A stretch of 64,000 nt of DNA from an uncultured virus (IMG/VR IMGVR_UViG_3300025732_000034) (taxonomy: Duplodnaviria > Heunggongvirae > Uroviricota > Caudoviricetes), in the IMG/VR virus record IMGVR_UViG_3300025732_000034; one strand, given 5' to 3'. Both the position numbers and the translations under genes were made by a program. Each line of letters begins with the position of its first letter. The first letter of the stretch is position 1. The notes beneath the pieces are model-generated. The model was not told where the DNA came from and ran no database searches. It saw only the letters and a program-made list of their open reading frames with translations. Shown here one piece after another: positions 30 through 46,801 of the stretch.

Positions 30-150
30 TGGTTCGCGGACCCTACGGCGCTGGACCTTTGGGCCGTCGGCCCTCCCCCGCCCCCTCGACCCAAATCGGC
101 CCTCCAAATCCGCGGCAACCTGGGCGCGGGGCGACCGCGGGCGCAGCGCG

Positions 151-569
151 ACCCAGCGGGCACGATGCACCCGGCGAACCCGAGGCGCAGCAAAACCCAG
201 CGGGTGCCCAGTGCCCGGGTCAATTGCCCCCGCGAATCCGCGACCCGCTGGGTTCACTGGGCCGGTTCATGGATTCGAGGGGGCACGGGCGCAGGGCGAC
301 CCACTGGGCCATGAAAAGCGAGGGAAAGGTTGACCCAGCGGGTTAAAAAGGGCCGGTGTGACAAAGTGCCCTTTCGCGCAGGCGACCCCCTTGATAGAGT
401 ACTTTTCGAAAAGCACTTATTTTTCAGAATCTCGAGAATCTACCCCCTGAGATAAAAGGGCGCATTGTCGCCACTTGATCCGCATGCAACCCAGCGGGGC
501 GGGAAACCTAATAACCCCGCGACCCAGTGGGTTATTATTGAAGGGTTTGACAATTTGAACCCACTGGGT
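151..569. promoter_or_regulatory. Cluster of 8 quasi-palindromes ACCCA(G/C)(C/T)GGGN (putative operators)
   Basis: Copies at 151, 195, 243 (reverse orientation), 299, 333, 489, 522 and 559. Confidence 0.7.
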
Positions 570-576
570 TGATAAT
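547..576 (+). promoter_or_regulatory. Early sigma70-type promoter
   Basis: TTGACA (547-552), 18 nt spacer, GATAAT (571-576), upstream of the first early gene. ACCCACTGGGT lies in the spacer. Confidence 0.75.
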
Positions 577-634
577 GGCGCATCGGCACACAAAACCGAT
601 GCACTGTAACCCGTAACCCCGAAAGGATGTAACC

Positions 635-781
635 ATGAACCGCCACCGTTTAACCTACGTCGATTTACACCCCGAGGCCCTGGGCCGTGAAAAGGCCCCG
701 CACCCTCTCGCCTTGATTGCGGGCGCGATTGTCGCGGCCCTCGCCTTTTATCTCGCAACCGTTTTTCTTTTCTCACTGTAA
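635..781 (+). CDS. Small early membrane protein, 48 aa (MNRHRLTY...VFLFSL)
   Basis: Translated by hand. Follows the start repeat, has a C-terminal hydrophobic helix, and has a homologue at 38,160-38,294. Confidence 0.75.
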   Translation: MNRHRLTYVDLHPEALGREKAPHPLALIAGAIVAALAFYLATVFLFSL

Positions 782-807
782 CCCGTAACCCCCGAAAGGA
801 TGTAACC

Positions 808-1104
808 ATGAAAACCGAAACCCTCGTTTTATCCGCAACCGTTGACCGCCTCGCAACCTTGAAGGCCGAAATTGCCCGATTGAAGGCCGAAGAGGATGCA
901 CTGAAGGATGTATTGATTGAAGCGGGCCTTGAAGTGATTGAAGGCACCCAGCACCGGGCCGCAATCTCGCATTGTGCGGGCCGTGAATTGATCGACTGGA
1001 AAACGATTGCAGCGAAATTCTCGCCCTCTCGGCAATTGATCGCAGCGCATACGTCGCAGGGTGAACCCTATGCAACCGTGCGCCTCTCGGCCCGTAAAGC
1101 GTAA
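808..1104 (+). CDS. Early hypothetical protein with N-terminal coiled coil
   Basis: 98-aa ORF directly after the start repeat. Confidence 0.8.
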   Translation: MKTETLVLSATVDRLATLKAEIARLKAEEDALKDVLIEAGLEVIEGTQHRAAISHCAGRELIDWKTIAAKFSPSRQLIAAHTSQGEPYATVRLSARKA

Positions 1105-1130
1105 CCCGTAACCCTTGAAAGGATGTAACC

Positions 1131-1379
1131 ATGAATGCAACCGAAACCCGCACCCTTTGGGCAATTGCCCGCGATATCCGCGCCCACTGGGTGAAACCTT
1201 ATTTTGGGGCCGTGCCCTATCTTGAGGCCCTTGATTCACTTTCGCATATTGAGGATTCGTACGGATTTGACGATGCCGAGAGCATTGTGCGTTATTTTCT
1301 CGCCAATGCGGGCACGTGGCGGGGCGAGGATGCCCGCCGAATCAAGGCCGAATTAAAAACCATGCTGGGGGATAAATAA
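1131..1379 (+). CDS. Early hypothetical protein
   Basis: 82-aa ORF after the start repeat. Its stop overlaps the next start (TAATG). Confidence 0.8.
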   Translation: MNATETRTLWAIARDIRAHWVKPYFGAVPYLEALDSLSHIEDSYGFDDAESIVRYFLANAGTWRGEDARRIKAELKTMLGDK

Positions 1380-2056
1380 TGCGATATCACTTTATCCGCG
1401 AATCTAGCAACCGTAAAACCGGCCCAATACCCGTTACTTATTCGCAGCGCGAAACGTGCCCGCCTTCATGCCCGCACTATCGGGCCGATTGCTACGCCGA
1501 GGATTTTTACACCCGTATGGCATGGGACAAGGTACCCGTGAGAGGGGGCACCCTCGGCGCATTGTGCGAGGCCGTCGCAGGGTTGCCCGAGGGGCAATTA
1601 TGGCGCATGAACGTCGCGGGGGATTTACCGGGCGAGGGTGAAACGGTTGACCCCGTCGCCCTGGGCGAGATTGTGCGGGCGAATATCGGGCGCAGGGGGT
1701 TCACGTACACCCATAAGAAAAGCCCCGAGGCCGTGCACTGGGCGCAGCATGCGACCCGCTGGGGGTTTACCGTAAACCTTTCGGCCGATGATGCGGGCGA
1801 GGCCGATACCCTGGCCGAAACCGGGTTACCGGTTTGCGCCATTGTGCCCAGTGATACCCCCGAGAAAACCGAAACCCCCGCGGGCCGCACAATCATTGTC
1901 TGCCCCGCACAATCTCGCGAGGATATCGATTGCGCGACGTGCGGCCTATGCGCCCGTGCCGATAGGCGCGTGATTATCGGATTCCGGGCGCACGGCACCC
2001 GTGCCCGCGTTACCGATGCAAAGGCCCGTCGCGTTATTCCAATTTTGAAAGGATGA
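1379..2056 (+). CDS. Cys-rich early protein, GP88/radical-SAM-like (tentative)
   Basis: Motifs CPPSCPHYRADCYA, WRMNVAGD, FTYTH, VNLSAD and a C-terminal CPAQ-x5-CxxCxxC. Confidence 0.6.
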   Translation: MRYHFIRESSNRKTGPIPVTYSQRETCPPSCPHYRADCYAEDFYTRMAWDKVPVRGGTLGALCEAVAGLPEGQLWRMNVAGDLPGEGETVDPVALGEIVRANIGRRGFTYTHKKSPEAVHWAQHATRWGFTVNLSADDAGEADTLAETGLPVCAIVPSDTPEKTETPAGRTIIVCPAQSREDIDCATCGLCARADRRVIIGFRAHGTRARVTDAKARRVIPILKG

Positions 2057-2060
2057 AACC

Positions 2061-2252
2061 ATGCCCCTCGATTTAATGACGTTACCGGCCCATGAGGCCG
2101 AGGCCCTCGCCTATGCCGAGGGATTCGCGGGCACGGCCCGCCTTTTCGCACGGATTGCGGATTTACAAAAGGCCCTCGGCGAGGCCGTCGCCGAGAATGA
2201 GATTCTGCGCGAATCCCTGCGCGACCTTGAAAGGGAAAGGTTGCGCGAATGA
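2061..2252 (+). CDS. Early coiled-coil protein
   Basis: Follows a partial start repeat. The LAYAEGF motif is shared with 39,286-39,597. Confidence 0.75.
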   Translation: MPLDLMTLPAHEAEALAYAEGFAGTARLFARIADLQKALGEAVAENEILRESLRDLERERLRE

Positions 2253-2323
2253 TAACGGCCCTTTTAATTGCGGCCCTCGGGGCCGTTTTATTGCCCTTAA
2301 TTGCCTGGATTCTCGATTTATAA
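2249..2323 (+). CDS. 24-aa hydrophobic peptide MITALLIAALGAVLLPLIAWILDL
   Basis: ATGA overlap with the upstream gene. Conserved homologue at 39,594-39,668. Confidence 0.7.
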   Translation: MITALLIAALGAVLLPLIAWILDL

Positions 2324-2328
2324 ACCCT

Positions 2329-2355
2329 GCCCCCGGTAACCCCGGGGGCCTTTTT
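2329..2355 (+). terminator. Intrinsic terminator
   Basis: GCCCCCGG-TAACC-CCGGGGGC stem followed by CTTTTT. Confidence 0.75.
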
Positions 2356-2376
2356 AACCCTTGAAAGGATGTAACC

Positions 2377-2685
2377 ATGAAACCCAGTAAACCCGCCGAG
2401 GCGGGCCTTTTTGCGGCCCGTATCCGCGAAACCGTCGCCCGCCTCGCCCTCGATGAACCCCGCGCAGCGGATTATCTCGGGGTGCCGGTGTACACCCTGC
2501 GAAAGTGGGCGACGGGCGAGCGGGTGCCCTCGGCCTCGGCCATTCGCTTGCTCGATGTCCTGGGCACCATTGAAGCCCTTGCGCCTGCGCTTCACGCAGC
2601 ATTTTTGCCCGCAGAATCGAGTCATGTCCGAAAATCCAGATCGAAAAGGTCAACCGATTCGGTCATGTCAGAAAATCCACTTTGA
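2377..2685 (+). CDS. XRE-type helix-turn-helix regulator
   Basis: AADYLGVPVYTLRKWATGERVP HTH signature. Homologue at 39,743-40,042. Confidence 0.8.
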   Translation: MKPSKPAEAGLFAARIRETVARLALDEPRAADYLGVPVYTLRKWATGERVPSASAIRLLDVLGTIEALAPALHAAFLPAESSHVRKSRSKRSTDSVMSENPL

Positions 2686-26707: not shown

Positions 26708-26755
26708 TTTGTCGATTCTTTAGAATCCCTGGTCAACTGGGCCAGTACAGGTTTT

Positions 26756-26783
26756 ATCTTACACCCAGTGGGCCGGGTGTCAA
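26756..26783 (-). promoter_or_regulatory. Promoter for the scaffold/coat genes with the palindrome in its spacer
   Basis: Minus strand TTGACA-CCCGGCCCACTGGGTG-TAAGAT (16 nt spacer). Confidence 0.6.
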
Positions 26784-26788
26784 GACGA

Positions 26789-28180: not shown

Positions 28181-28212
28181 TTTTTATCCTTTACGCAATT
28201 GAATTTAATTGC

Positions 28213-28371
28213 TCATCGGTTGGTTTTTTTTAATGTTGGATGATTCCATTCAAATATGTAATCCCCATTTGCATTGCCATCATTTCTTAAAAGAATTGAA
28301 CCTTTATCTAAGTCAAAATCTTCTGGTTTTAAATCAGGGTATATTGCAAAAGGTTTTTCGTATAAATTCAT
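28213..28371 (-). CDS. XkdW-like small tail-fibre-associated protein, apparently frameshifted at an A8 run
   Basis: MNLYEK..AIYPDL...DF....I.LRNDG..GDYI.EWNHPTL. The expected PTDEQL ending lies in another frame (stop at 28,191). Confidence 0.6.
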   Translation of the reverse strand: MNLYEKPFAIYPDLKPEDFDLDKGSILLRNDGNANGDYIFEWNHPTLKKTNR

Positions 28372-37354: not shown

Positions 37355-37397
37355 TGTATACGTTTTCTGGGAACGTGTGTCAAGTGACCCACTGGGT
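37355..37397 (-). promoter_or_regulatory. Putative terS/late promoter with the palindrome just upstream of -35
   Basis: Minus strand TTGACA (37,383-37,378), 17 nt spacer, TATACA. ACCCACTGGGT at 37,387-37,397. Confidence 0.55.
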
Positions 37398-37564
37398 TCT
37401 AGGATTCAAAAAATAAAAAAATTCCGTGCGGACCCTACGGCGCTGGACCCTTGGGCCGTCGGCCCTCCCCCACCCCCTCGACCCAAATCAACCCTCCAAA
37501 ATCACGGGCACCGGGAGCGCGGCTCCCGTGGCTCCGGCTCCCGCGTCTCCGTGGCTCCGCGCTC

Positions 37565-37951
37565 ACCCAATGAGCTGGAGCAATTAACCCGATGGGTATT
37601 GATCCAATGGGTTACAGACACACAAAATCTGGGATTCTCGAGCGCTCACCCAGTGAGCGGGAATTCCCTTGAGGCTCTCACCCAATGGGCCACAGAAACA
37701 TAGGAATTCCCTTTCCCATTGGGTCAATTCGAGGGAGTGTGACAATTGTTACTTTCGCGCAGGCGACCCCCCAGATTGATACTTTTTCCATTGGGTCTTT
37801 TTTTTCAGAATCCTTGAATCCTTACCCTTGAGATAAAAGGGCAATTTGTCACAGTTTGCTAACTCATTACCCAATGGGCCACGGATACTCAATACCCATT
37901 GGGTTTACTGGGTTATTTCATCGAATGCTTGACACGGCTCACCCAATGGGC
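37565..37951. promoter_or_regulatory. Cluster of about 10 (A)CCCA(A/T/G)TG(G/A)G quasi-palindromes, copy 2
   Basis: For example at ~37,565, 37,587, 37,603, 37,648, 37,680, 37,714, 37,787, 37,869, 37,894 and 37,941. Confidence 0.7.
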
Positions 37952-37957
37952 CACAAT
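37929..37957 (+). promoter_or_regulatory. Early promoter, copy 2
   Basis: TTGACA, 17 nt spacer containing ACCCAATGGGC, then CACAAT. Confidence 0.7.
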
Positions 37958-38017
37958 GTATCCGTGGCTCAAGTGAGCCGCGCTCTCTGTAACCCGTAAC
38001 CCGTGAGGAGTAAGACT

Positions 38018-38158
38018 ATGACCAAATCCGAATTTGCAGCATTGTGTGAAAAGTACACAATCCCTCCATCATTGGCTCTCGAGAATCCCGCAATTGTGGA
38101 GGCTCTCCGTGAGCGAGATGATGCGGAGGTAGAGCGTGTATTGCGTGAGGAGTATTGA
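38018..38158 (+). CDS. 46-aa early protein
   Basis: Translated by hand (MTKSEFAALCEKY...). GAGGAG RBS after the TAACCCG repeat. Confidence 0.7.
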   Translation: MTKSEFAALCEKYTIPPSLALENPAIVEALRERDDAEVERVLREEY

Positions 38159-38159
38159 G

Positions 38160-38294
38160 ATGAACAATCATCGAGACTATCCATACATGCGTGAGCGTGA
38201 GGAGCGTGAGCCGCATTGGCTCCTCATCATTGGAGGAGCCGCGCTCACGCTCGCGGCTTTGTGGATTGTGTGTGTCTTTCTTTTTTCTCTGTAA
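38160..38294 (+). CDS. 44-aa early membrane protein
   Basis: MNNHR...PHW.LI.G.A...VFLFSL, homologous to 635-781. Confidence 0.7.
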   Translation: MNNHRDYPYMREREEREPHWLLIIGGAALTLAALWIVCVFLFSL

Positions 38295-38311
38295 CTGTGA
38301 GGAGTAACCCA

Positions 38312-38848
38312 ATGAGTAACTTATTTGAACAATTCGAGGGAGCCGATTTGGAGCGGCTCATAGCTTGCCTGAATGAGGTCAAACTGGCCGGAATGAGTGT
38401 AGACAAACACACTCAAGCCGGAGTGAATCAAGGCTCTGGGAATGTCTGGGTTTGGAATGAAGACTGGCCGGGTTGTGTGTATTGCTCTATCGGTTTCGAT
38501 GTTTCGTGGTGCTACTCATGCCCTGATTGTGGTGAGGAGCATGATTTTGAGACTTATGACGAAATGGCCGATTATGCGGAGCGTTATCCCGGAGCGTGTA
38601 AATCATGTAAGCCGCGTTATCTGGCCGGATGGAATTTTCCCGGATATCTCCCAGACGCGGAGCCGGTGGAATTTGAGGAGCCGGATGATGCGCTCGAATA
38701 TGTCCGGGATTTAATGCGCGAAGATGCTCAAGGGAATGGATGGAGCCGCGAAGATGAGGAGACTATCGACACAATCGAGAGCGACAAAGCCGGAGAATTT
38801 GGGGCCACAGTGTATGGCCGTCATTACTTTGTAACTGTGGAGGCTTGA
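38312..38848 (+). CDS. Acidic early protein with CxxC motifs
   Basis: GAGGAG RBS, ATG at 38,312. CVYC, CPDC, CKSC and a D/E-rich C-terminal half. Confidence 0.75.
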   Translation: MSNLFEQFEGADLERLIACLNEVKLAGMSVDKHTQAGVNQGSGNVWVWNEDWPGCVYCSIGFDVSWCYSCPDCGEEHDFETYDEMADYAERYPGACKSCKPRYLAGWNFPGYLPDAEPVEFEEPDDALEYVRDLMREDAQGNGWSREDEETIDTIESDKAGEFGATVYGRHYFVTVEA

Positions 38849-38851
38849 ATC

Positions 38852-38977
38852 ATGACAGCATTGGAAATTTACCAATTGTTAGATGGAGCAGGTATTAAAT
38901 TTGAGGTAATTGAGATATTCGAGGGCTCTCGATTTATCCGAATTGAGGTAATTGAAGAAATAGATGAGGAGGCTTAA
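38852..38977 (+). CDS. 41-aa acidic early protein
   Basis: Translated by hand (MTALEIYQLLD...EEIDEEA). GGAGG RBS. Confidence 0.65.
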   Translation: MTALEIYQLLDGAGIKFEVIEIFEGSRFIRIEVIEEIDEEA

Positions 38978-38980
38978 ATC

Positions 38981-39274
38981 ATGGAAACAGTACAAATTGA
39001 GGTTTATTCATTCGATGAATTGAGCGCGGAGACGCTCGAGCGCATGCGCTCCGATGTATCCGAATTTGTGGAGAGTAACAAAGCCGCGCTCCGTGAATCT
39101 GGGTTATCTGATGAGCAAATTGGCCACGATTTTTGGCTCACCCGTAATGGCCACGGAGCGGGATTCTGGGATCGTGGAATTGGCCCCATTGGAGACACAC
39201 TCACTCGAGCCGCGAAGCACTCCGGGAGCGCGGATTTGTACATCGGAGATGATGGAAACATTCACCAATTTTGA
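38981..39274 (+). CDS. Early protein with GHDFWLTRNGHGAGFWDR motif
   Basis: 97-aa ORF with a GGAGG RBS. Confidence 0.75.
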   Translation: METVQIEVYSFDELSAETLERMRSDVSEFVESNKAALRESGLSDEQIGHDFWLTRNGHGAGFWDRGIGPIGDTLTRAAKHSGSADLYIGDDGNIHQF

Positions 39275-39285
39275 GGAGAAATACT

Positions 39286-39597
39286 ATGTTTGATTCACTG
39301 ACAATTGCAGAGCGTGAGCGTTTGGCATACGCGGAGGGATTCACGGAGACGGCTCGAGTATTGGGCCAAACCGATGATGCACAAACAGAGCGAGACGCGT
39401 TACTCGATGAGGTAGAGCGGCTCCGTGATGAATTGCGGGATTTGCAGCGAGAAACCCAGGATTATGCGGAGTATCGCGCATTTTTTGAGGAGTGTTTCGA
39501 GCATCTGGCCGGACATTATCCGGCTCCGTCTGTAACCTCAGACTATGACAAATCCGTGATTTTCACGGCTATCGATAACGCAGAGGGAGCCGCATGA
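39286..39597 (+). CDS. Early coiled-coil protein (LAYAEGF family) with C-terminal extension
   Basis: GAGGAG RBS. N-terminal half is homologous to 2061-2252. Confidence 0.75.
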   Translation: MFDSLTIAERERLAYAEGFTETARVLGQTDDAQTERDALLDEVERLRDELRDLQRETQDYAEYRAFFEECFEHLAGHYPAPSVTSDYDKSVIFTAIDNAEGAA

Positions 39598-39668
39598 TAA
39601 CGGCTCTCTTAATTGCACTCGCGGGAGCAATTTTGCTCCCGTTAATAGCCCATTTTCTTGATTTGTAG
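39594..39668 (+). CDS. 24-aa hydrophobic peptide MITALLIALAGAILLPLIAHFLDL
   Basis: Homologue of 2249-2323. Confidence 0.7.
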   Translation: MITALLIALAGAILLPLIAHFLDL

Positions 39669-39689
39669 AGCGAGACACGCTCACCCAGT

Positions 39690-39718
39690 ACCCGGAGACA
39701 CGCTCTCCGGGTTTTTTT
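39690..39718 (+). terminator. Intrinsic terminator
   Basis: CCCGGAGA-CACGC-TCTCCGGG followed by T7. Confidence 0.8.
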
Positions 39719-39742
39719 GATCCCGTATTTTGGAGGCTTAAT

Positions 39743-40042
39743 ATGTCACAGTACACACAATCCGCGCTCTCTCATCGGCTCATCGAATTGCGCTCCCGTC
39801 TCAATTTTTCACAGATTCAAATGGCCGATTATTTGGGAGTGTCTGTATTCACGCTCCGCAAATGGGAGAGCGGAGAGCGTAACGCGGGAGCCGCGCTCAT
39901 CCGGCTACTCGATGTTTTGAATTTTTTGGAGGTCTTTGCTCCCGCGCTTCACGCTGGGTTTTTGCCCACAGAATCGAGTCATGTCCGAAAATCCAGATTG
40001 AAAAGGTCAACCGATTCGGTCATGTCAGAAAATCCACTTTGA
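39743..40042 (+). CDS. XRE-type HTH regulator
   Basis: SQ.QMADYLGVSVFTLRKWESGER. Confidence 0.8.
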   Translation: MSQYTQSALSHRLIELRSRLNFSQIQMADYLGVSVFTLRKWESGERNAGAALIRLLDVLNFLEVFAPALHAGFLPTESSHVRKSRLKRSTDSVMSENPL

Positions 40043-40056
40043 AGGAGTCAACCACC

Positions 40057-40281
40057 ATGAACGCCAATGACCACTACGAACGCCTTTATGGCGACCTGGG
40101 CCTGTCACCCAAGGACGCGGCCCGCTGGGTCTTTGCATCAGGCTGGAACAGCGCCCTCGAGGAGTTTATGAAGCGCCTGAACACCATGCCACTGGGTGAC
40201 GACACCCGCGCATCGTTTGCCGTGTATGTCGGGCAGATGATGCACGTTGACCCGTCCGAGATCGAGGGGAGAATGCAATGA
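40057..40281 (+). CDS. Conserved hypothetical protein (array left anchor)
   Basis: Homologue of 2948-3172. Confidence 0.8.
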   Translation: MNANDHYERLYGDLGLSPKDAARWVFASGWNSALEEFMKRLNTMPLGDDTRASFAVYVGQMMHVDPSEIEGRMQ

Positions 40282-40628
40282 GCATAGAAGCAATGAAACA
40301 GGCGCTGGATGCGTTGGAGTACGCCGGCAAGGATGATTTTTGGCGCTATCAAAATGAAGCAATCACATCCCTACGCCAAGCCATAGAGCAGGCTGAGAAG
40401 CAAGAGCCTGTGGCGTGGATTGAGCACCACAAAGGCGGTGATAACTTAGTTTGGGATGAGCCAAACAAAGGAACACCCCTCTACACCCACCCACAACCAA
40501 AGCGTGAATGGGTCGGGCTGACGGATGAGGAAATTGAACAAGGCTGTAAAGAGTCTTGGGTAACTTTACAAGCATGGCAGTCCGCTGTCTGGTGGGCGGA
40601 AGCCAAACTCAAGGAGAAGAACACATGA
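40278..40628 (+). CDS. Modular cassette protein
   Basis: All four shared repeats, with different inserts from 3169-3606. Confidence 0.8.
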   Translation: MSIEAMKQALDALEYAGKDDFWRYQNEAITSLRQAIEQAEKQEPVAWIEHHKGGDNLVWDEPNKGTPLYTHPQPKREWVGLTDEEIEQGCKESWVTLQAWQSAVWWAEAKLKEKNT

Positions 40629-41008
40629 GCATAGAAGTAATGAAACAAGCGCTTGAGGCGTTGGAATTTCATAGTGCTGGCGATGAGGTTGATGAGCAAA
40701 TCATTACATCCCTACGCCAAGCCATAGAGCAGGCTGAGAAGCAGGATGCGTGGAAGCCCAACGACACAGCATACCGACCCGGAGGACTGCCGCAAGACTT
40801 CATCGTGCATGAGGTTGAGAATGAAGGCGACTGGTCAGAGTGGGTCTGCCCTGACCCAGAACAATACTTCATGAAATGCTGCGACTGCGGTCTGGTACAT
40901 GAGATGCAGTTCAAGGTCGTCAAGTACTCAGTGGGTGACGAGTGTGATGGCGTTGACGATCCCGATGTGCGGGGAATTTTTAGAGCAAGGAGAATAAGCA
41001 ATGCCTAA
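40625..41008 (+). CDS. Modular cassette protein with CCDCGLVH zinc-ribbon-like C-terminus
   Basis: Start at 40,625 (ATGA overlap). Carries the two N-terminal repeats. Confidence 0.75.
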   Translation: MSIEVMKQALEALEFHSAGDEVDEQIITSLRQAIEQAEKQDAWKPNDTAYRPGGLPQDFIVHEVENEGDWSEWVCPDPEQYFMKCCDCGLVHEMQFKVVKYSVGDECDGVDDPDVRGIFRARRISNA

Positions 41009-41432
41009 ATACGAACATGGATTAACGTTTAAAGAATGTTACGTATGCGCTTCGCCAAAGCATGCAGCGCAGGCTGAGAAGCAGGAGCCTGTGATTGGCA
41101 CAAAGACTTGGTATGAGGACGGAAAAGTTATCACGCAGAACCTGTACCCGTCTGACGTTTACAAGCAAGAGAAGCAGGAGTCGGTGGCGATCTATCAATA
41201 CCAATTGGCGAGTGGTTCGTGGATTGACCAAACAAAAAACAGTTACGACTACAACGTTCGCCACGGTCAAGCGACTGTTCGGGTTGTCTACACCACCCCA
41301 CAACCACAGCGTGAATGGGTTGGGCTGACTCAGCAAGACATCGACATTGCCTTTGATGACACGCAAGAGGGTGGTGGGTTTAATGAGTTTGCCGAAGCCA
41401 TAGAAGCCAAACTCAAGGAGAAGAACACATGA
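41001..41432 (+). CDS. Modular cassette protein
   Basis: QAEKQEPV and KQEKQESVA partial repeats, plus a WVGLT...KLKEKNT end. Confidence 0.75.
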   Translation: MPKYEHGLTFKECYVCASPKHAAQAEKQEPVIGTKTWYEDGKVITQNLYPSDVYKQEKQESVAIYQYQLASGSWIDQTKNSYDYNVRHGQATVRVVYTTPQPQREWVGLTQQDIDIAFDDTQEGGGFNEFAEAIEAKLKEKNT

Positions 41433-42097
41433 CGCCTTTGGTTTGCAAAGCGGTCAAGTTTGCGCCTGAACCAGAAACAGCCTTGTGGTTTGATGTTGGT
41501 CAAATGGATACAACCCCCGCAATGAAAGTTCCTGCCGAGTTCTTAATGAACTTGCCATCAAAAAGAACTGGCATTGTTGGTTTTGACACTGTAGGTAAAG
41601 ACTTTGCTCTGTGGCTTACTCAGGGCGATGGCTCTGTTACTGTTGGTGGTTGTTCAATGTGGCATGGTGGCAAATATTTCCCGCCATACGCATATATGGC
41701 AACTCCAGATGGTTTTAAGGTTTACCGCAAAGGCCAAGAAATAACCTTAGAAGACATCAAACCAGTGCACCGTATGGTGCTTGCTGTGGTGATCAAATTG
41801 GCTATGCAGTCCGAGGGTTACAGGCCAACACCACGGCGAACCTTCATCAACCAAAAGAGGCAATCCAAAGGCAAATCGGCACTGACATTCGACTGGCACA
41901 CCGTATTGGTAGAACCGCCAAAGCAAAAGAATGATTCACAGGGTGGCACTCACGCAACCCCGCGCAGGCATCAAGTGCGAGGTCATTGGCGCACCTACAA
42001 ATCTGGAAAACGAGGATGGGTAAGTGAATGCTGGAAAGGTGATGCAAGCAAAGGAACTGTTTTCAAAGACTATCAACTCAAGGAGAAGAACACATGA
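41429..42097 (+). CDS. Hypothetical protein with HxxPRRHxVRGHWR motif, copy 2 only
   Basis: 222 aa, ending in the shared LKEKNT repeat. Confidence 0.8.
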   Translation: MTPLVCKAVKFAPEPETALWFDVGQMDTTPAMKVPAEFLMNLPSKRTGIVGFDTVGKDFALWLTQGDGSVTVGGCSMWHGGKYFPPYAYMATPDGFKVYRKGQEITLEDIKPVHRMVLAVVIKLAMQSEGYRPTPRRTFINQKRQSKGKSALTFDWHTVLVEPPKQKNDSQGGTHATPRRHQVRGHWRTYKSGKRGWVSECWKGDASKGTVFKDYQLKEKNT

Positions 42098-42243
42098 CCA
42101 AAGACGAACTGCTGGCAATCCTTCGCCTGTGCAACGCTGACTCGTCAGCCATCGATGCTGTCGAGTTGGCCTACGAGTTGGGTTTCAAAGCGGGTCAAGC
42201 GGAGAAATCCGATGACCCTCAATCCATCGATTCGGGGTCGTAA
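42094..42243 (+). CDS. 49-aa conserved protein (array right anchor)
   Basis: Homologue of 4183-4332. Confidence 0.7.
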   Translation: MTKDELLAILRLCNADSSAIDAVELAYELGFKAGQAEKSDDPQSIDSGS

Positions 42244-44711
42244 CCCTTCACCAATTTGCGCTCTTTACCCTGGGCGGTGGCATAGCGGTAAATGTAGTCC
42301 GCATGCCGCTGCTTGGCCTTGATCACCTTCTCGCGGTACTCGCGGAACATGGTCGAGATGCTCGGGTTGATCGCCCAGACCACATGGTGCTTGGTCATTT
42401 TCTCCTCGATCTGCATGGCCCAGCCAGCCTTCTCAAGTGTGTACATGGCATCGAGCACCATCTGATCCTTCTGCCACTCGGTCTTGCCCTCGAGCCGCCT
42501 TCTGGCTGACCGCTTGAGGCTTCTCAGGTCCACCATCTGCGTGTCCCCGCTCACCTGGATGATGTAGTCCGTCATCCACTGATCGAACGAGTCATCAAGC
42601 ACCCCGGCCAACTCACCTAGGGCATACCGAAACGCAGGGATCACGTAACCCCGCACGATGTGGACAACTTTGTGGACAATCTCGACATCGACCTGCGGGC
42701 TGAACGGGTTCTCCATCAAGTGCATCAACAGAATCAAACGGCCTGCGGTGCCCTCAAGTTTGCCAAATGCCGTCATGTATTCGCTGGATGCGTTCAAGAG
42801 CCGCTCGTCCTGCTTGGCCCCTTCGTACCATGATTGGAAATCCCGATAGGCATGGTATGCGTCTGGGGATAACTTGTAGGTCTGGGGCGGCAGCGCATAG
42901 ATCAAGCGCAGCGTGTTTTCCCATGCCTGGGCGCTTGTCATGTACTCGGGCACAGGGTTACCCAGGCGCGTCTTGCTGCCCCGCAGGATCGCTGGTATAA
43001 ATCGCTGGAGCAGACCATCGCTTGCGAGGGAGGCCAGGTTTTGCTTAAAAACTTGTGGCTGGATGTTGCCGTAAATCGAAACGGCCAAGTTCTCGCAGTG
43101 GATCGACCCCGCGCCCACGCGGTCCATCTCATACCGCTCTGCCTCGTATGACACCACCCACGCTGATCGATCCTCGCCGCTTTGCTTGTCGGTCAGTTTG
43201 CGAATCCATGAGTTCATCTCATCAAGGTGGCACAGCAGCCCCCGTGGCCGCTCGGCAGCAGAGCGCACAAGTTTCTGGCTGGTGATGTCACTCACTGTGA
43301 TCTTGAGCGGCACAGGCTGCGGTGGCATCTCGGGCACGGCTGGCGGCTGGCCCCCAAGCAAGGCATCGGGTGAAGCTGAGAACTCGAGGAACGACTTTTT
43401 GGCACTGGCGTATGCGGCCTCCTTGCCCTCCCAGTCCAGCAGTTCCTTCTGGTATCGTGGCCGGTCTTCGGACTCGATGTCCTTGAGCGGCGACAGCATG
43501 GGGCGCGATCCGGGTGACTTCTTGTCCGCTGGGTCACCGAGGGTCATCAACCAGAGCACCGGCGGCACTCTGAACCCTGGCATCAACTCAAGCCGGATGC
43601 GGGCATCAACCACCCCGCAGACAGCGCTCAACCCAGCGAACAAAGGGACCAAAGGGTCGCACCCAACGCTGTCGGATATCTCCAGCGCCCGTGTTTGCAA
43701 AACCGAGGGCCAAAGCCCCATGTCCATCTCAGGTGGCGGTGGCCGCAGCCCTTGCAGCACATCGACCGGGGCCATCGGTGGGGCTTCCACCTTGCTGAAC
43801 AACTCGTGCGCGTCAGGCGTGGGGCGCTGCCACCCGTGTTGCTTGGCGATGTGAAAGAGTGTCCCCAACTTGACAGCGGTGGCTTTGTCCGGCTTGAAGC
43901 TGACCCACTGCGTCACGATGCCGCGCTCACCAGGGTACTTGGCCGCAGACTGCGCGGACCACTCGTTCCACAGTTGCAGGGCTGCGTCAAGCTGCTCGGT
44001 CTGGGTGCCAGCCCAGTGCAGAGCCATCCCGACGTTGATCCACTCCTCGCGGGCGCAGTCAGCAGGGATCGCCTCGAGTGCCTGCCTGATCTCCTCCCAG
44101 GATGCGTCAACCTGCTCACCGGTAGCGATGGTGCGCTCTTTGTCCTGCGCCAGCAGTTCTTGCCAGATGTCCAGCAGTTGCTGGGGGATCACTGGCAGGC
44201 GCATCCAGTGACCGTCACCGGCCCAGTGATAGGGCTGCTTGGTGTCTGGGTGAATGCTCGGGGGCAAGACATCCTGCACCGTCAACCCGTTGGCCGTGGC
44301 GCAGCGCAACTCGTAGGCTGTCACGCCGCCAACCAGAATCTTTTTGCTCGGCAGCGCGAGGCCAAAGGGCATCGAGTACAGTAACTTGCCGTGCCCAGGG
44401 CGACCACTGTTGATGATCACAGCATCGGGTGCATCGTAGAGCGCTTGCAGGTCGATCCCCTGCGCCAGCGTAGCGTCCCAGTTGTCGATGTCAAAGGCCA
44501 TCGTGCCGCTGTACGCATGGGCCAGCCCGATGCCGTAGCCTGGGGGCAGTTGGGTCTGGTCTTTCAGGCACCGCTCACGCTTGTTCCAGCCCACCGCAGC
44601 CGCGCCTGTCGGACCCTTCGTGCCTGGGGGGATTGGCACAAGGCTCCAGCCGTGTCGGATGTACGCATCAACAGATGCGGGATGTTGTTGCACTGAGGGG
44701 ACTGCTGTCAT
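42219..44711 (-). CDS. Prim-Pol/PriCT-2/DUF3987 primase-helicase
   Basis: Near-identical to 4308-6800. Confidence 0.85.
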   Translation of the reverse strand: MTAVPSVQQHPASVDAYIRHGWSLVPIPPGTKGPTGAAAVGWNKRERCLKDQTQLPPGYGIGLAHAYSGTMAFDIDNWDATLAQGIDLQALYDAPDAVIINSGRPGHGKLLYSMPFGLALPSKKILVGGVTAYELRCATANGLTVQDVLPPSIHPDTKQPYHWAGDGHWMRLPVIPQQLLDIWQELLAQDKERTIATGEQVDASWEEIRQALEAIPADCAREEWINVGMALHWAGTQTEQLDAALQLWNEWSAQSAAKYPGERGIVTQWVSFKPDKATAVKLGTLFHIAKQHGWQRPTPDAHELFSKVEAPPMAPVDVLQGLRPPPPEMDMGLWPSVLQTRALEISDSVGCDPLVPLFAGLSAVCGVVDARIRLELMPGFRVPPVLWLMTLGDPADKKSPGSRPMLSPLKDIESEDRPRYQKELLDWEGKEAAYASAKKSFLEFSASPDALLGGQPPAVPEMPPQPVPLKITVSDITSQKLVRSAAERPRGLLCHLDEMNSWIRKLTDKQSGEDRSAWVVSYEAERYEMDRVGAGSIHCENLAVSIYGNIQPQVFKQNLASLASDGLLQRFIPAILRGSKTRLGNPVPEYMTSAQAWENTLRLIYALPPQTYKLSPDAYHAYRDFQSWYEGAKQDERLLNASSEYMTAFGKLEGTAGRLILLMHLMENPFSPQVDVEIVHKVVHIVRGYVIPAFRYALGELAGVLDDSFDQWMTDYIIQVSGDTQMVDLRSLKRSARRRLEGKTEWQKDQMVLDAMYTLEKAGWAMQIEEKMTKHHVVWAINPSISTMFREYREKVIKAKQRHADYIYRYATAQGKERKLVKGYDPESMD

Positions 44712-44902
44712 ACACTAGCCTCGTTGGTGATTGCAGTTGCCAACAGTCTCCTCATAGTGACCCCTTTACCGCCTCGGCTGACCCCCGAGGCGTTTCTTTT
44801 TCCGCTTGTCATTTCGACGCTCCAAAAATATTTTCGCTTGACCTGTTGCACATCGTACAGCATCTGTGATACGATTGCAACATCAAACGGAGATTTTTTC
44901 AA

Positions 44903-45106
44903 ATGCCCGCACTTAAATCATTCGACACGCACATGACTCTACGAGTCACAAACCGTGTCCGTACCGCGTTCAATCGCAAGGCAGAGCGATACGGGAAACC
45001 GTCCGATGTCTTGCGTGAACTCATCGAGGCTTTTCTTGATGATCGACTTGTAATCCAACCCAACCCCCGTAAGGAGTCACTGTATGTCCCTCGAATCCAA
45101 GATTGA
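44903..45106 (+). CDS. RHH DNA-binding protein
   Basis: Identical to 6991-7194. Confidence 0.7.
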   Translation: MPALKSFDTHMTLRVTNRVRTAFNRKAERYGKPSDVLRELIEAFLDDRLVIQPNPRKESLYVPRIQD

Positions 45107-45485
45107 AGCCCTCACCGCCGCCGTCATTGCCTTGACCGCGAAACTGGAATCTACGAATGTAGCGCCAGCCGCGCCTGTGGTAAACCCTACCCCCGCACCC
45201 GTGGCTGCACCGGCACCCGCTCCAGCCCCTGCACCGGTGGCTGCTGCCATGCCCGCGCCTCCCACGTTTCAACCCGCCCCCGCCGCGCCTGCCGCCACTG
45301 GTGCTCCGTTCAGCGATCCGAAGGGGCTGATCGACTACGTGATGAGCGCATACAAGGCGCTTGGCCCGCAGAAGGGTGCCGAGATTCAGAAGGTCTTGAC
45401 CGGCTTGGGCTACGGCAATATCAACGATGTCAAGCCTGAGCACTACGGCGCTTTGCATGCTGGCGTTGAAGCGCTGAAGGGTTAA
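45084..45485 (+). CDS. Pro/Ala-linker protein
   Basis: Identical to 7172-7573. Confidence 0.75.
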   Translation: MSLESKIEALTAAVIALTAKLESTNVAPAAPVVNPTPAPVAAPAPAPAPAPVAAAMPAPPTFQPAPAAPAATGAPFSDPKGLIDYVMSAYKALGPQKGAEIQKVLTGLGYGNINDVKPEHYGALHAGVEALKG

Positions 45486-45487
45486 CC

Positions 45488-46786
45488 ATGAGCACCCACG
45501 CTAACCTGTCCCCGAGCAAGCGCCACCGCTGGGCGCTGTGTCCGGGCAGCGTTCGTGAGGAAGCCAAGTACCCAGAGGAGCGCACCAGCGAAGCCGCGAT
45601 TGACGGCACCCATAGTCACACACTGCTTGAGCACTGTCTGAGCGAGGGCGTTGAGCCTGAGACAATGATCGGTCAAGTCCTGAGTGATGACGATGGGGCT
45701 TTCAAGGTGGACGCTGACCGCGCTGCTAGGGTCAAGGTCGCCACGGACTATGTGAAACACCGCATCGCGGAGCAGTTCGGCATGTGCGAGGTCATCGCGG
45801 AAACGCGAGTCAACCCTCAGCACCTGCTTGGCCGTGACGACATGAGCGGCACAGTGGACATCCAGATTCGCGGCACTGAAGTGCTCGAACTGGTGGACTA
45901 CAAAGACGGCATGGGTGTGGTGGAGGCCGAGGGCAACTACCAACTCGAACTGTACGCGATGGGCTGCTTGGCTGAGTTGAAGCTGCCCGTCAACGGCCAG
46001 TACCCGTGGAAGCGGGTCCGCATGACCATCATCCAGCCCAAGCTGGCGCTGAAGGGCATGAAGCCAATCACATCGCATGAGGTGCCGGTTCAGGCAATTC
46101 TTGATATGATTGGCAAGATGGTCATCGAAGGCGCTGCCTGCGATGCACCGGACGCACCACTGGTGCCGGGTGACAGTCAATGTAAATTTTGCCGCGCTAA
46201 AGGCTCCTGCGCCGCGCTGGCAAGTAACGTAATGAAGGAGGTAGGAATCATGTTCCAGCCAGCAGTAATGAACCCGATGGATGTCGCGCAGCAAAGCGCT
46301 GACAAAGACCCCACGACAATGGACGATGCCCAGATCAGACAGATCATGGAGGCGGCTCCGCTCATGCGCCAGCTACTCGAGGGCGTGGAGAAGGAAGCCC
46401 TGCGCCGTCTGGAGGCCGGTCAATCAATCCCTGGACTCAAGTTGGTCAACGGTCGCGGCTCACGCGCCTGGGCGCTGCCCGAGGAGCAGATGGCCGAGAA
46501 GCTGGTCAAGATGGGCATCCCCAAGACCGCAGTCTACGAAACCAAACTCGTCACCCCCGCCAAGGCTGAGAAGCTGACCTGGGAGAAGCGTGACGGAACC
46601 AAGATGCAACTGTCCGACCGCCAACTCAAGACGATGGAAAACGAGTACGTCGTCAAGATGGCTGGCAAGCTGACTGTTGTCCCTGAATCCGATGGCCGTC
46701 CCGCTGTCGTACTGAATGCTGCGCCGATGTTCGGTGCAGTTGAAGCAGCACCCGCTGCCGAATCCCTGCCCTCGTGGCTAACCTAA
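45488..46786 (+). CDS. DUF2800-like nuclease
   Basis: Identical to 7576-8874. Confidence 0.85.
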   Translation: MSTHANLSPSKRHRWALCPGSVREEAKYPEERTSEAAIDGTHSHTLLEHCLSEGVEPETMIGQVLSDDDGAFKVDADRAARVKVATDYVKHRIAEQFGMCEVIAETRVNPQHLLGRDDMSGTVDIQIRGTEVLELVDYKDGMGVVEAEGNYQLELYAMGCLAELKLPVNGQYPWKRVRMTIIQPKLALKGMKPITSHEVPVQAILDMIGKMVIEGAACDAPDAPLVPGDSQCKFCRAKGSCAALASNVMKEVGIMFQPAVMNPMDVAQQSADKDPTTMDDAQIRQIMEAAPLMRQLLEGVEKEALRRLEAGQSIPGLKLVNGRGSRAWALPEEQMAEKLVKMGIPKTAVYETKLVTPAKAEKLTWEKRDGTKMQLSDRQLKTMENEYVVKMAGKLTVVPESDGRPAVVLNAAPMFGAVEAAPAAESLPSWLT

Positions 46787-46801
46787 ACTGGAGTAACTGT
46801 A

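What the first reader, a model, noticed from the sequence alone, without database searches (positions are those of the whole stretch)
37500..39960. Copy 2 early region shows the opposite motif bias while encoding homologous proteins
Seen: GAGC/GCTC and GGAG/CTCC occur on most lines here. GGCG/CGCC occurs only once between ~37,450 and 40,060 (at 37,762, inside a conserved element). Four genes are clear homologues of copy 1 (VFLFSL membrane protein, LAYAEGF protein, MITALLIA peptide, HTH) but are recoded, for example ATGATAACGGCCCTT versus ATGATAACGGCTCTC. The replication and core virion genes of the two copies are highly similar. Inference: sister phages carry interchangeable leading modules, each tuned to a different set of forbidden motifs, which could set host range at the DNA-sequence level.
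Basis: partly seen in the sequence, partly recalled or inferred. Interest (0 to 1): 0.8.

Follow-up and report, generated by a model that had tools for sequence, protein, structure and literature searches.

The report
Word-purged early cassette in sister phages
Two nearly identical freshwater phages carry alternative 2.4-kb early-gene cassettes, each rewritten down to its codon choices to avoid its own list of four-letter DNA words, which looks like camouflage against host enzymes that read DNA.

Summary
In 37,523-39,936 GGCG/CGCC occurs once (20.6 expected from dinucleotide shuffles), GAGC/GCTC 74 times (21.0) and GGAG/CTCC 62 times (20.7). The sister cassette (130-2,580) has 0 GGAG/CTCC and 3 GAGC/GCTC.

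The region is the early cassette of a ~37.4-kb phage with a P22-type portal. It holds an operator-rich leader, a sigma-70-like promoter, seven small genes, a terminator and the N-terminal half of an HTH regulator.

Each cassette lacks about 12-20 asymmetric tetramers. The loss is on both strands, in all three frames and in non-coding DNA, with sharp borders at conserved anchors. It is 8-fold (copy 1) and 3.6-fold (copy 2) beyond what the cassette's own codon usage gives. The core is not depleted.

The GAGC/GGAG excess is mostly a by-product. Recoding the same proteins while avoiding the purged words reproduces about 60% of it; the reverse does not work.

Copy-1-type purging persists across 8-26% divergence in 6 of 6 relatives. 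The copy-2 set is lineage-specific, on an accelerated branch.

Best reading: selection on DNA words, probably by sequence-reading host defences acting before early products are made. First entry of this DNA is unproven, and the packaging genes look headful-type. This scan had already noted word-purged early operons in other phages.

The parts
37408..37522 (.). Left anchor: conserved non-coding element shared with copy 1 (18-129). It follows an A-rich tract. The purged domain starts at its right edge.
   Evidence: 85% identity over 115 bp. Set-2 words are dense up to 37,510 and sparse after.
37511..39952 (.). Purged domain of copy 2. About 12-18 asymmetric tetramers are nearly absent on both strands: CGCC, CAAC, CAGC, GAAC, GGCA, ACCG, CGAC, GCAC, CTGC, GGAC, ACCA, ACGA, plus GATC and others.
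   Evidence: 12 tetramers are at least 5-fold depleted against the core. Density is 0-12 set-2 words per 250 bp against 35 in the core. Tetramer-entropy z is -14.3 against -1.6 to -3.6 in 17 control windows.
37588..37950 (.). Leader array of operator-like 9-mers CCC-RNY-GGG (6 perfect copies). Central triplets are AAT/ATT (5) and GAT (1).
   Evidence: 25 matches in the window against 5.9 expected. They cluster in the two leaders.
37752..37850 (.). Internal conserved element shared with copy 1 (371-469). It holds the only GGCG of the cassette and 4 of its residual set-2 words.
37929..37957 (+). Sigma-70-like early promoter (TTGACA, 17 nt, CACAAT) with an operator 9-mer in its spacer.
   Evidence: 10 of 12 consensus positions. 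This is a consensus match only.
38018..38158 (+). Early gene, 46 aa, net charge -5, no family.
38160..38294 (+). Small hydrophobic-tailed protein (ends VFLFSL), homologue of copy 1 gene 635-781.
   Evidence: 19/48 identical residues, E 6e-9.
38312..38848 (+). 178-aa two-domain acidic protein (net charge -26): an N-terminal CxxC zinc-ribbon-like domain and a C-terminal domain that also occurs alone.
   Evidence: 142 representative relatives. AF2 pLDDT 94.2. No clear structural match: best Foldseek E 0.16, best VIA Z 5.2.
38852..38977 (+). Early gene, 41 aa, net charge -8.
38981..39274 (+). Early gene, 97 aa, net charge -10, phrog_1915 (unknown function).
39286..39597 (+). Early gene, 103 aa, net charge -15, contains LAYAEGF. 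Homologue of copy 1 gene 2061-2252.
   Evidence: 25/53 identical residues, E 3e-11.
39594..39668 (+). 24-aa hydrophobic peptide (begins MITALLIA). Homologue of copy 1 gene 2249-2323.
   Evidence: 19/24 identical residues.
39690..39712 (+). Intrinsic-terminator-like hairpin followed by a T-run, closing the early operon.
   Evidence: 9-pair stem, 6 of them GC, then T7. The copy 1 counterpart is at 2329-2349.
39743..40042 (+). HTH regulator (HTH_3; weak RstR/DicA/MqsA-HTH-like matches below cut-off). Its N-terminal part lies inside the purged domain and its C-terminal part inside the conserved right anchor.
   Evidence: Pfam HTH_3 E 4.4e-7. NCBIfam matches are below cut-off. 59/88 identical to copy 1 gene 2377-2685.
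39936..40062 (.). Right anchor, 94% identical to copy 1 2579-2705. It contains two 35-nt direct repeats 41 bp apart (39978-40012 and 40019-40053).
   Evidence: Set-2 words become dense again from 39,953.
103..2517 (.). Counterpart purged domain of copy 1: leader with 8 operator 9-mers (152-568), promoter 547-576, genes 635-2323, terminator 2329-2349, N-terminal half of the HTH gene. Purged words include AACA, AACT, CTCC, GAGC, AGCC, AGTC, ACTC, AGAC, ACAG, CAGA, CTGA, GGAC.
   Evidence: Tetramer-entropy z -7.0.

Best explanation
The stretch is the early cassette of a ~37.4-kb freshwater podophage (P22-type portal, Sf6-type small terminase, prim-pol primase, family-B polymerase). It runs from a conserved left anchor through an operator-rich leader, a sigma-70-like promoter, seven small genes and a terminator into the DNA-binding half of an HTH regulator. 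It ends at a conserved right anchor.

Shown:
- It is one of several alternative cassettes at this locus.
- Its DNA is written in a restricted vocabulary. About 12-18 mostly asymmetric tetramers are almost eliminated on both strands, in all reading frames and in non-coding DNA, by coordinated choice of neighbouring codons.
- The rest of the genome is not affected.
- The excess of GAGC/GCTC and GGAG/CTCC is largely what is left once those words are forbidden.
- In copy-1-type cassettes the purge has been held through 8-26% sequence divergence.
- In the copy-2 lineage it arose on an accelerated branch.

Inferred: the constraint is selection by proteins that read short DNA words, most likely host defence nucleases or modification-dependent systems. 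These must find no target in the DNA whose products (takeover or counter-defence functions) are needed first. This is the logic established for the T5 first-step-transfer region and for T7-like leading regions. On this reading, different cassettes are different solutions for different defence repertoires, exchanged between near-identical cores by recombination at the anchors.
For: Local and sharp.
- Set-1 words run at 0-4 per 250 bp from 1 to 2,500 and then 15-32. Set-2 words run at 0-12 per 250 bp from 37,406 to 39,905 and then 19-36 (exact borders).
- In the core the same words sit at 0.97-1.03 of max-order Markov expectation.
- 20 of 21 control windows have no tetramer that is at least 5-fold depleted; each cassette has 12.

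DNA-level.
- With proteins fixed and core codon usage, a word and its reverse complement are both lost: GGAG 0/7.9 and CTCC 0/4.5 in copy 1, GGCG 0/12.2 and CGCC 0/11.2 in copy 2.
- The non-coding leader bins are depleted too.

Beyond codon usage.
- Permuting synonymous codons within the cassette gives 101+-8 set-1 words against 13 observed, and 122+-8 set-2 words against 34 observed. 0 of 1000 permutations are as low, and all three frames are affected.
- At 54 conserved residues with different codons, swapping codons between copies would create +24 and +28 purged words.

Enrichment as by-product.
- Gibbs recoding of the copy 2 proteins while avoiding 18 purged words raises GAGC/GCTC from 27 to 44 and GGAG/CTCC from 19 to 38 at matched residual. 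Observed values are 57 and 49.
- Rewarding GAGC/GGAG up to the observed level still leaves 276 purged words against 57 observed.

Maintained.
- In 6 of 6 copy-1-type relatives (8-26% divergent), set-1 words number 24-51. If the same substitutions fell at random sites the expectation is 77-108; 0 of 500 simulations are as low in each case.

Acquired.
- In a 735-column three-way alignment the copy 2 branch has 136 private changes, against 42 (L036) and 84 (L017). It holds 16 set-2 words against 60 and 65.

Exchange.
- G001/L002 combines the copy 2 cassette (100% identical) with a terS end identical to copy 1's and a downstream core 98.8% identical to copy 1.

Precedent.
- Sensitivity of T5-like and Murciavirus phages to R-M depends on sites in the first-used region (PMC10644984, passages read; PMC12455610, abstract and Discussion read).
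Against: - No reader of these words is identified, and the host is unknown. 0 relatives of the primase were found in one genome for each of 185,579 species.
- Orthodox restriction targets are not avoided. 6-bp palindromes number 25 and 22 against 13 expected. Among 4-bp palindromes only GATC (both copies) and ACGT (copy 2) are low.
- No known defence is documented here to read a dozen 4-nt words.
- First entry is unproven. The P22-type portal, the Sf6-type TerS and a TerL 38% identical to that of a P22-named Salmonella phage suggest headful packaging. PMC12455610's Discussion states that early-region site avoidance should be irrelevant for headful packagers.
- The early proteins have no recognisable anti-defence family.
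- The copy-2 set is not shared by the homologous cassettes L036 and L017: 73 and 71 words against 79 and 77 expected.
- Sets 1 and 2 were chosen post hoc on these same sequences, so overstate depletion somewhat. The set-free entropy test and the relatives are the independent checks.
- The mosaics rest on metagenome assemblies, which can be chimeric between strains.
Confidence: 0.5

Rival explanations
1. Self-compatibility. Each cassette avoids the words read by a DNA-acting protein that the cassette itself encodes, for example a host-shutoff nuclease or a DNA-coating silencer. The early DNA then stays usable while host DNA is attacked.
For: The purge covers exactly the cassette and changes when the cassette changes. 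The T5 literature leaves open how first-step-transfer DNA survives the phage's own host-DNA degradation (PMC10644984, Introduction passage). Gene content differs between cassettes: DUF7227 in copy 1, and the 178-, 41-, 46- and 97-aa acidic proteins in copy 2.
Against: L036 and L017 carry homologues of the 178-aa gene (76% and 62% identity) but do not share the purge. No nuclease or known DNA-binding domain other than the HTH is detectable in copy 2. The unpurged rest of the phage genome would also be hit unless it enters later.
Confidence: 0.12
2. Foreign compositional origin. The cassettes were acquired from phages of other hosts and simply carry another genome signature or codon adaptation (translational efficiency), with no selection on words.
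For: Copy 2 early GC is 0.50 against 0.57 in the core. Both cassettes shift to T/A-ending two-fold codons. All 31 relatives examined have an early window that is compositionally more deviant than any window of their own core, with a continuum of strength. Leading regions of plasmids were reported to be codon-adapted rather than consistently motif-depleted (PMC13478746, abstract read).
Against: Depletion is 3.6- to 8-fold beyond the cassette's own codon usage and is present in non-coding DNA. The low-GC island at 26.3-28.7 kb is just as deviant in composition but has normal tetramer entropy (z -2.4). Substitutions avoid recreating the words. The two cassettes choose different codons for the same conserved residues.
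Confidence: 0.1
3. Region-restricted mutational signature, for example deamination or error-prone repair of heavily transcribed or first-exposed DNA, destroys certain contexts.
For: On the copy 2 branch strong-to-weak changes outnumber weak-to-strong changes 67 to 26. C>T is the commonest class, 25 of 136. AC/GT steps are low and AT steps high in both cassettes.
Against: 80 of the 136 changes are transversions of many kinds. The loss is strand-symmetric. The purged lists differ between sister cassettes at the same locus. No simple context rule describes them.
Confidence: 0.08
4. RNA-level selection. The early transcripts avoid cleavage motifs of mRNA interferases or RNases, or sites of RNA-modifying defence toxins.
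For: All early genes lie on one strand. GCT is used for 0 of 92 alanines in copy 1. Some trinucleotides are strongly strand-asymmetric: TCA 11 against TGA 52 in copy 1.
Against: Reverse complements of the purged words are equally depleted with proteins held fixed. The leader upstream of the predicted promoter is purged as well.
Confidence: 0.08

Closest known systems
First-step-transfer (pre-early) region of T5/BF23 (Tequintavirus)
   Same: It is a terminal block of host-transcribed pre-early genes of mostly unknown function. The phage resists R-M, CRISPR and Ssp systems provided this block lacks their recognition sites, while sites elsewhere are tolerated (PMC10644984, abstract and passages read).
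   Different: T5 has proven two-step injection and ~10-kb terminal repeats. Here the order of entry is unknown and the packaging genes look headful-type. In T5 a few defined 5-7-bp sites matter. Here a dozen or more tetramers are removed wholesale, with codon-context recoding.
Variable leading region of T7-like phages (Murciavirus versus the Mme2I Type I R-M system)
   Same: Sister phages differ mainly in the early region. Presence or absence of a defence motif there decides infection, and the region is proposed as an evolutionary battleground (PMC12455610, abstract and Discussion read).
   Different: That case concerns one bipartite 7-nt Type I motif in a phage with staged, transcription-driven entry. 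Its authors predict no such effect for headful packagers. Here the purge is of many short asymmetric words and no host or defence system is known.
Leading region of conjugative plasmids
   Same: It is first-used DNA enriched in anti-defence genes and under defence-driven selection on sequence (PMC13478746, abstract read).
   Different: In 1751 Enterobacterales plasmids, depletion of palindromic motifs was not consistent and codon adaptation was the main signal (same abstract). Here word avoidance exceeds codon usage, and palindromes are not the target.
Lambdoid immunity cassettes (imm regions flanked by conserved recombination sites)
   Same: These are alternative regulator-plus-operator modules at one locus, with conserved flanks and mosaic exchange. 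Here the operator 9-mers differ in their central triplet, and the HTH proteins are 59/88 identical, with the C-terminal stretch that lies in the conserved right anchor almost unchanged (26 of 28 residues).
   Different: No integrase or lysogeny evidence was found. Immunity cassettes are not known to carry a purged vocabulary.
Whole-genome 4-mer anomaly of pandoraviruses
   Same: A tetramer is almost eliminated by an unidentified stringent selection (bioRxiv 10.1101/712018; search listing and start of abstract only).
   Different: That case is genome-wide, in a giant virus of eukaryotes, and concerns one word. This one is local to a 2.4-kb cassette, involves many words, and the list differs between sisters.

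Membership tests
First-injected / leading-region site avoidance (T5 FST, T7-like) | The region is the first DNA to enter the cell (staged entry or a fixed leading end). | not testable with these tools
   Only assembled contigs were available. No molecule starts or ends are visible (table 6: none). G001 closes on itself with a 120-bp end overlap. The P22-type portal and Sf6-type TerS point to headful packaging, which argues against a fixed end.
First-injected / leading-region site avoidance (T5 FST, T7-like) | Defence target words are absent from the region but present elsewhere in the same genome. | tested here: met
   Purged words run at 0-12 per 250 bp inside and 15-36 outside. Core observed/expected is 0.97-1.03. 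That these words are defence targets is not shown.
First-injected / leading-region site avoidance (T5 FST, T7-like) | The region is transcribed by host RNA polymerase and encodes takeover or anti-defence proteins. | tested here: inconclusive
   Sigma-70-like promoters match 11/12 and 10/12 consensus positions, and terminators are present. The proteins have no known family. Copy 2 proteins are strongly acidic, -5 to -26. 1 of 63 relatives of the 178-aa protein's C-terminal domain is fused to an ArdA fragment. There is no structural match.
Orthodox Type II (palindromic) restriction-site avoidance | Depletion of short palindromes. | tested here: not met
   6-bp palindromes number 25 and 22 against 13 expected. 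Of the 16 4-bp palindromes only GATC (3/14.7 and 3/14.5) and ACGT (copy 2, 0/5.5) are clearly low. GGCC, CCGG, CGCG and AATT are at or above expectation.
Lambdoid-type immunity cassette | A divergent repressor DNA-binding domain with matching divergent operators, flanked by conserved DNA. | tested here: met
   The HTH proteins are 59/88 identical, and the C-terminal stretch lying in the conserved right anchor is almost unchanged (26 of 28 residues). The operator 9-mers have different central triplets. The anchors are 85% and 94% identical. Binding itself is not shown.
Lambdoid-type immunity cassette | Temperate lifestyle (integrase, prophage copies). | tested here: inconclusive
   No prophage relatives were found among one genome for each of 185,579 species by primase patterns. 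That search finds close relatives only.

The most novel reading that the evidence does not exclude
The purged lists are read-outs of a still undescribed kind of host defence, or of a shuffling pool of half-site specificities such as Type I target-recognition domains or phosphorothioate-type 3-4-nt motifs. This defence would act on the early operon's DNA whatever the order of entry, even in a headful-packaging phage. Early cassettes would then be exchangeable 'passwords' that define infection-compatibility groups within one phage species. Their word lists could be used to infer the specificities of uncultured hosts' defences from viromes alone.
Probability: 0.2. Interest if true: 0.85.

Novelty: new variant of a known kind. 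Interest (0 to 1): 0.62.

Why it matters
If the purged lists mirror host defence specificities, then host range in this abundant freshwater phage group is set partly by a swappable 2.4-kb cassette and not only by receptor binding. The copy 2 cassette is held by runs from 16 studies of freshwater metagenomes.

Early-region word lists would also become a culture-free read-out of the defence repertoires phages face.

The case stretches the current model in three ways. The avoided words are short and asymmetric, not palindromic restriction sites. Recoding reaches codon context. And the phage looks like a headful packager, for which the published model predicts no benefit from early-region avoidance.

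It also gives a practical caution: striking motif 'enrichments' next to purged words can be pure by-products.

Tried and rejected
- A simple degenerate rule for the purged sets. An exhaustive IUPAC 3-4-mer scan, a greedy cover and N-XY-N context tables gave only partial summaries, such as AGYY/RRCT 3 against 68 and AACW 0 against 39 in copy 1, and CRAC 4 against 58 in copy 2.
- A longer repeated motif behind the GAGC/GGAG excess. None was found; the top 6-8-mers are diffuse.
- Rfam. 0 matches at gathering score in the whole window.
- Host assignment. The window's own assembly is not held. There were 0 relatives in genome contigs.
- Function of early proteins. Pfam, PHROGs and NCBIfam gave nothing informative beyond DUF7227, HTH and phrog families of unknown function. 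The ESM Atlas best score was 0.85, in unnamed clusters. The fold of the 178-aa protein is confident (pLDDT 94.2) but has no clear match: Foldseek best E 0.16, VIA best Z 5.2.
- Physical termini. Laying Logan contigs of 4 runs showed no molecule starts or ends. In 3 of 4 runs the contigs stop 10-50 bp before the A-rich tract at 37,408-37,424 and resume 10-49 bp after it (ends at 37,356-37,412, restarts at 37,434-37,473). One run bridges it. This fits assembly trouble at a homopolymer and says nothing about genome ends.
- Yersinia phage fEV-1 shares only replication genes and was not used further.
- Conservation of the copy-2 purge in L036 and L017: not found.


Full report
WHAT THE WINDOW HOLDS

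A self-comparison shows two co-linear phage genomes laid end to end. Copy 1 runs from 1 to about 37,405. Copy 2 runs from about 37,406 to 64,000 and is cut by the window end. The cores are 78-96% identical; for example 4,164-9,532 matches 42,075-47,450 at 96.4%.

The first ~2.5 kb of each copy share only three short anchors:
- 18-129 with 37,408-37,522 (85%)
- 371-469 with 37,752-37,850 (78%)
- 2,579-2,705 with 39,936-40,062 (94%)

Core genes include a P22-type portal, an Sf6-type small terminase, a Prim-Pol/PriCT-2/DUF3987 primase, a family-B polymerase and an SNF2 helicase. The nearest named record is the metagenome-assembled Phage DSL-LC05.

The window's own assembly is not held. The nearest record, G001 (38,032 bp), closes on itself with a 120-bp end overlap. 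It is 100% identical to the window across the junction between copy 1 and copy 2.

OBSERVATION

They are far outside chance.

| Word pair | Copy 2, 37,523-39,936 | Mean of 1000 dinucleotide shuffles |
|---|---|---|
| GGCG/CGCC | 1 | 20.6 |
| GAGC/GCTC | 74 | 21.0 |
| GGAG/CTCC | 62 | 20.7 |

No shuffle reached any of the three observed values.

Copy 1 (130-2,580) has GGAG/CTCC 0 and GAGC/GCTC 3, each against 14.7. Its GGCG/CGCC count is ordinary, 49 against 57.4.

Each cassette has 12 strand-symmetric tetramers depleted at least 5-fold against the core. 20 of 21 control windows of the same size have none, and one has 1.

A measure that needs no chosen word list is tetramer entropy against a first-order Markov model. 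It gives z -7.0 for copy 1 and -14.3 for copy 2. Seventeen controls give -1.6 to -3.6. These include the low-GC island at 26.3-28.7 kb, which gives -2.4.

ANATOMY

Both cassettes have the same plan.
- A leader with an array of operator-like 9-mers CCC-RNY-GGG. There are 8 in copy 1 at 152-568 and 6 perfect ones in copy 2 at 37,588-37,950. The whole window has 25 against 5.9 expected. Central triplets are AGC/GCT/ACT/AGT in copy 1 and AAT/ATT/GAT in copy 2.
- A sigma-70-like promoter with an operator in its spacer, at 547-576 and 37,929-37,957.
- Six or seven small genes.
- A terminator-like hairpin, at 2,329-2,349 and 39,690-39,712.
- An HTH regulator gene whose C-terminal part lies in the conserved right anchor.

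Four gene pairs are homologous; the others differ. Copy 1 has DUF7227. Copy 2 has strongly acidic proteins, with net charges of -5 to -26.

Even the ribosome-binding sites follow the vocabulary. Copy 1 uses AAAGGA-type sites that avoid GGAG. Copy 2 uses GAGGAG.

NATURE OF THE BIAS

1. It is local and sharp. Purged-word density is 0-4 per 250 bp (copy 1) and 0-12 (copy 2) inside the cassette, and jumps to core level at 2,518-2,550 and at 39,953. Several residual words sit in the conserved internal element. In the core the same words are at 0.97-1.03 of max-order Markov expectation.
2. It is strand-symmetric with protein sequences held fixed, and it is present in the non-coding leaders.
3. It is not codon usage. 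Permuting synonymous codons within each cassette keeps its proteins and its own codon usage. This gives 101+-8 words against 13 observed (copy 1) and 122+-8 against 34 observed (copy 2), in all three frames; 0 of 1000 permutations are as low. Because the word sets were chosen on these same sequences, these ratios are somewhat inflated. The relatives below are the independent test.
4. The targets are not orthodox restriction palindromes. 6-bp palindromes number 25 and 22 against 13 expected. Only GATC (both copies) and ACGT (copy 2) are low among the 4-bp palindromes.
5. No single degenerate rule describes the lists.
6. The signal sits at the 3-4-nt level. Under a max-order Markov model the strongest copy 2 deficits are AGCT, CGCC, GATC, CAAC, CAGC, ACCG and GGAC, and there is little further signal at 5-mers.

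THE 'OPPOSITE' ENRICHMENT

The copy 2 proteins were recoded with core codon usage while avoiding 18 purged words.

| Recoding of copy 2 proteins | GAGC/GCTC | GGAG/CTCC |
|---|---|---|
| Unconstrained | 27 | 19 |
| Avoiding purged words, matched residual | 44 | 38 |
| Avoiding purged words, full avoidance | 48 | 44 |
| Observed | 57 | 49 |

The reverse does not work. Rewarding GAGC/GGAG up to the observed level still leaves 276 purged words against 57 observed.

So roughly 60% of the excess follows mechanically from the purge. For example, GGC may be followed only by T or C in copy 2, while GGCT is forbidden in copy 1. Over all tetramers the two vocabularies are not opposite (r=0.25).

RELATIVES

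143 IMG/VR stretches encode the primase, and 80 loci were kept. 31 of these had at least 3.5 kb on the early side and at least 6 kb of own core; the other 49, and L001, were left out.
- In 31 of 31 the most deviant early window exceeds every window of the locus's own core (chi-square 333-1,894 against 120-709).
- 11 of 31 have at least 5 purged tetramers.
- The lists differ between loci and the strength forms a continuum. L036 is among the 11 but has an anomalous core.

Copy-1-type cassettes in L003, L018, L023, L045, L054 and L067 are homologous at 69-91% identity. They keep set-1 words at 24-51, where random placement of the same substitutions would give 77-108; 0 of 500 simulations are as low in each of the 6. 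That null ignores codon position.

The only partial homologues of the copy 2 cassette, L036 and L017, do not avoid set-2 words: 73 and 71 against 79 and 77 expected. In a three-way alignment the copy 2 branch carries 136 private changes against 42 and 84. These are 56 transitions and 80 transversions, with strong-to-weak changes 67 against weak-to-strong 26. The copy 2 sequence holds 16 set-2 words against 60 and 65. That looks like a rapid, directional recoding rather than a single mutational signature.

CASSETTE VERSUS CORE

The test used 29 genomes. L036, L058, L059 and L060 were dropped for anomalous or low-GC cores.
- Vocabulary similarity falls with primase distance overall (Mantel r=-0.44, 0 of 999 permutations).
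- 5 of 21 close pairs (distance <0.08) have discordant vocabularies (r<0.5). Examples are copy 1 with copy 2, L002 with L003, and L067 with L069.
- G001/L002 carries the copy 2 cassette at 100% identity. It has a terS end identical to copy 1's. Beyond 47,450 its core is 98.8% identical to copy 1 but only 91-94% to copy 2.

These mosaics come from metagenome assemblies and could be partly chimeric. Local linkage across both anchors is seen in independent runs' contigs (records 4 and 19). Runs from 16 studies of freshwater metagenomes hold the copy 2 cassette or part of it.

MECHANISM

What is shown is selection-like constraint on short double-stranded DNA words, confined to an exchangeable early cassette.

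What is inferred is the agent. The best-supported analogy is the first-used DNA of T5-like and T7-like phages, where sites in that region alone decide sensitivity to R-M and other nucleases (PMC10644984; PMC12455610). The purged words have the size and asymmetry of half-sites or cores of the Type I and Type III systems listed in PMC10644984:

| Word | Known system | Count here |
|---|---|---|
| GTGC | EcoKI half-site | 4 of 26.6 in copy 2 |
| RTCG | EcoR124I half-site | GTCG/CGAC 3 of 24 in copy 2 |
| GTCA | EcoAI half-site | 8 of 31 in copy 1 |
| AGAC | core of EcoPI AGACC | 1 of 13.7 in copy 1 |

This is a resemblance, not a test.

Three things weigh against the simple model. The packaging genes are probably headful-type. 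Palindromes are not avoided. The early proteins have no recognisable anti-defence family. The single hint there is that 1 of 63 relatives of the 178-aa protein's C-terminal domain is fused to an ArdA fragment.

The rivals are scored in their own section: self-compatibility with a cassette-encoded DNA reader, foreign composition or codon adaptation (compare PMC13478746), a regional mutational signature, and RNA-level selection.

NOVELTY

Site avoidance in first-used DNA is known, and this scan has already noted word-purged early operons in about ten other phages.

New here:
- Sister cassettes at one locus have different lists.
- The purge is demonstrably at codon-context level and is held across divergence in one lineage.
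- It is freshly acquired on an accelerated branch in the other lineage.
- The conspicuous enrichments are shown to be by-products.
- It occurs in a phage with P22/Sf6-type packaging genes.

My searches found no paper describing multi-tetramer purging of a phage early cassette. The closest are the papers named above, and a pandoravirus whole-genome 4-mer anomaly for which I saw only the search listing.

LIMITS

- The host is unknown.
- There are no raw reads, termini or expression data.
- The word sets were defined post hoc.
- The relatives are metagenome assemblies.
- Supplementary files of the cited papers were not consulted.

Noticed in passing
window 39978-40012 and 40019-40053; 2621-2655 and 2662-2696: Two 35-nt direct repeats 41 bp apart form the conserved right border of both cassettes (94% identical between copies). 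They overlap the HTH gene's C-terminus and the ribosome-binding site of the next gene. They may be a cis-acting site or a recombination anchor.
   Followed up: partly
window 40278-42097 (and 2947-4193 in copy 1): Three consecutive small genes end in the same C-terminal tail (…KLKEKNT) and share internal DNA repeats; for example 40599-40628 equals 41403-41432 at 100%. This is a small family of duplicated middle genes of unknown function.
   Followed up: no
window 26000-29000: A low-GC island (GC 0.40-0.49) in copy 1's structural arm. Its composition is strongly deviant but its tetramer entropy is normal. It is probably a swapped host-recognition or accessory module.
   Followed up: no
window 1-30 and 37408-37424: A-rich tracts (23 A at the window start) lie between the terminase operon and the early leader. 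Contigs of 3 of 4 independent runs stop 10-50 bp before the tract at 37408-37424 and resume 10-49 bp after it; one run bridges it.
   Followed up: partly
window 38312-38848: The 178-aa acidic protein folds confidently (pLDDT 94.2) into two domains with no clear structural relative. Each domain also exists as a stand-alone small protein. The C-terminal domain follows DUF7249 in 11 of 63 relatives and precedes an ArdA fragment in 1.
   Followed up: partly
window 37762: In run X12 a ~3.5% divergent variant of the copy 2 cassette reads T instead of G at 37,762. That removes the cassette's only GGCG (table 3).
   Followed up: no
L036 (IMG/VR contig of 36,938 bp): Its core side has GC 0.41 and extreme tetramer deviation (core maximum chi-square 6,135 against the pooled background; 709 with 15 purged words against its own core). 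Its early side resembles the copy 2 cassette. It may be a chimeric contig or a second purged block.
   Followed up: no
window 37385-37397: A copy-1-type operator 9-mer (CCCACTGGG) sits just upstream of the small-terminase gene at the right end of copy 1. The regulator may therefore also act on the late or packaging operon.
   Followed up: no
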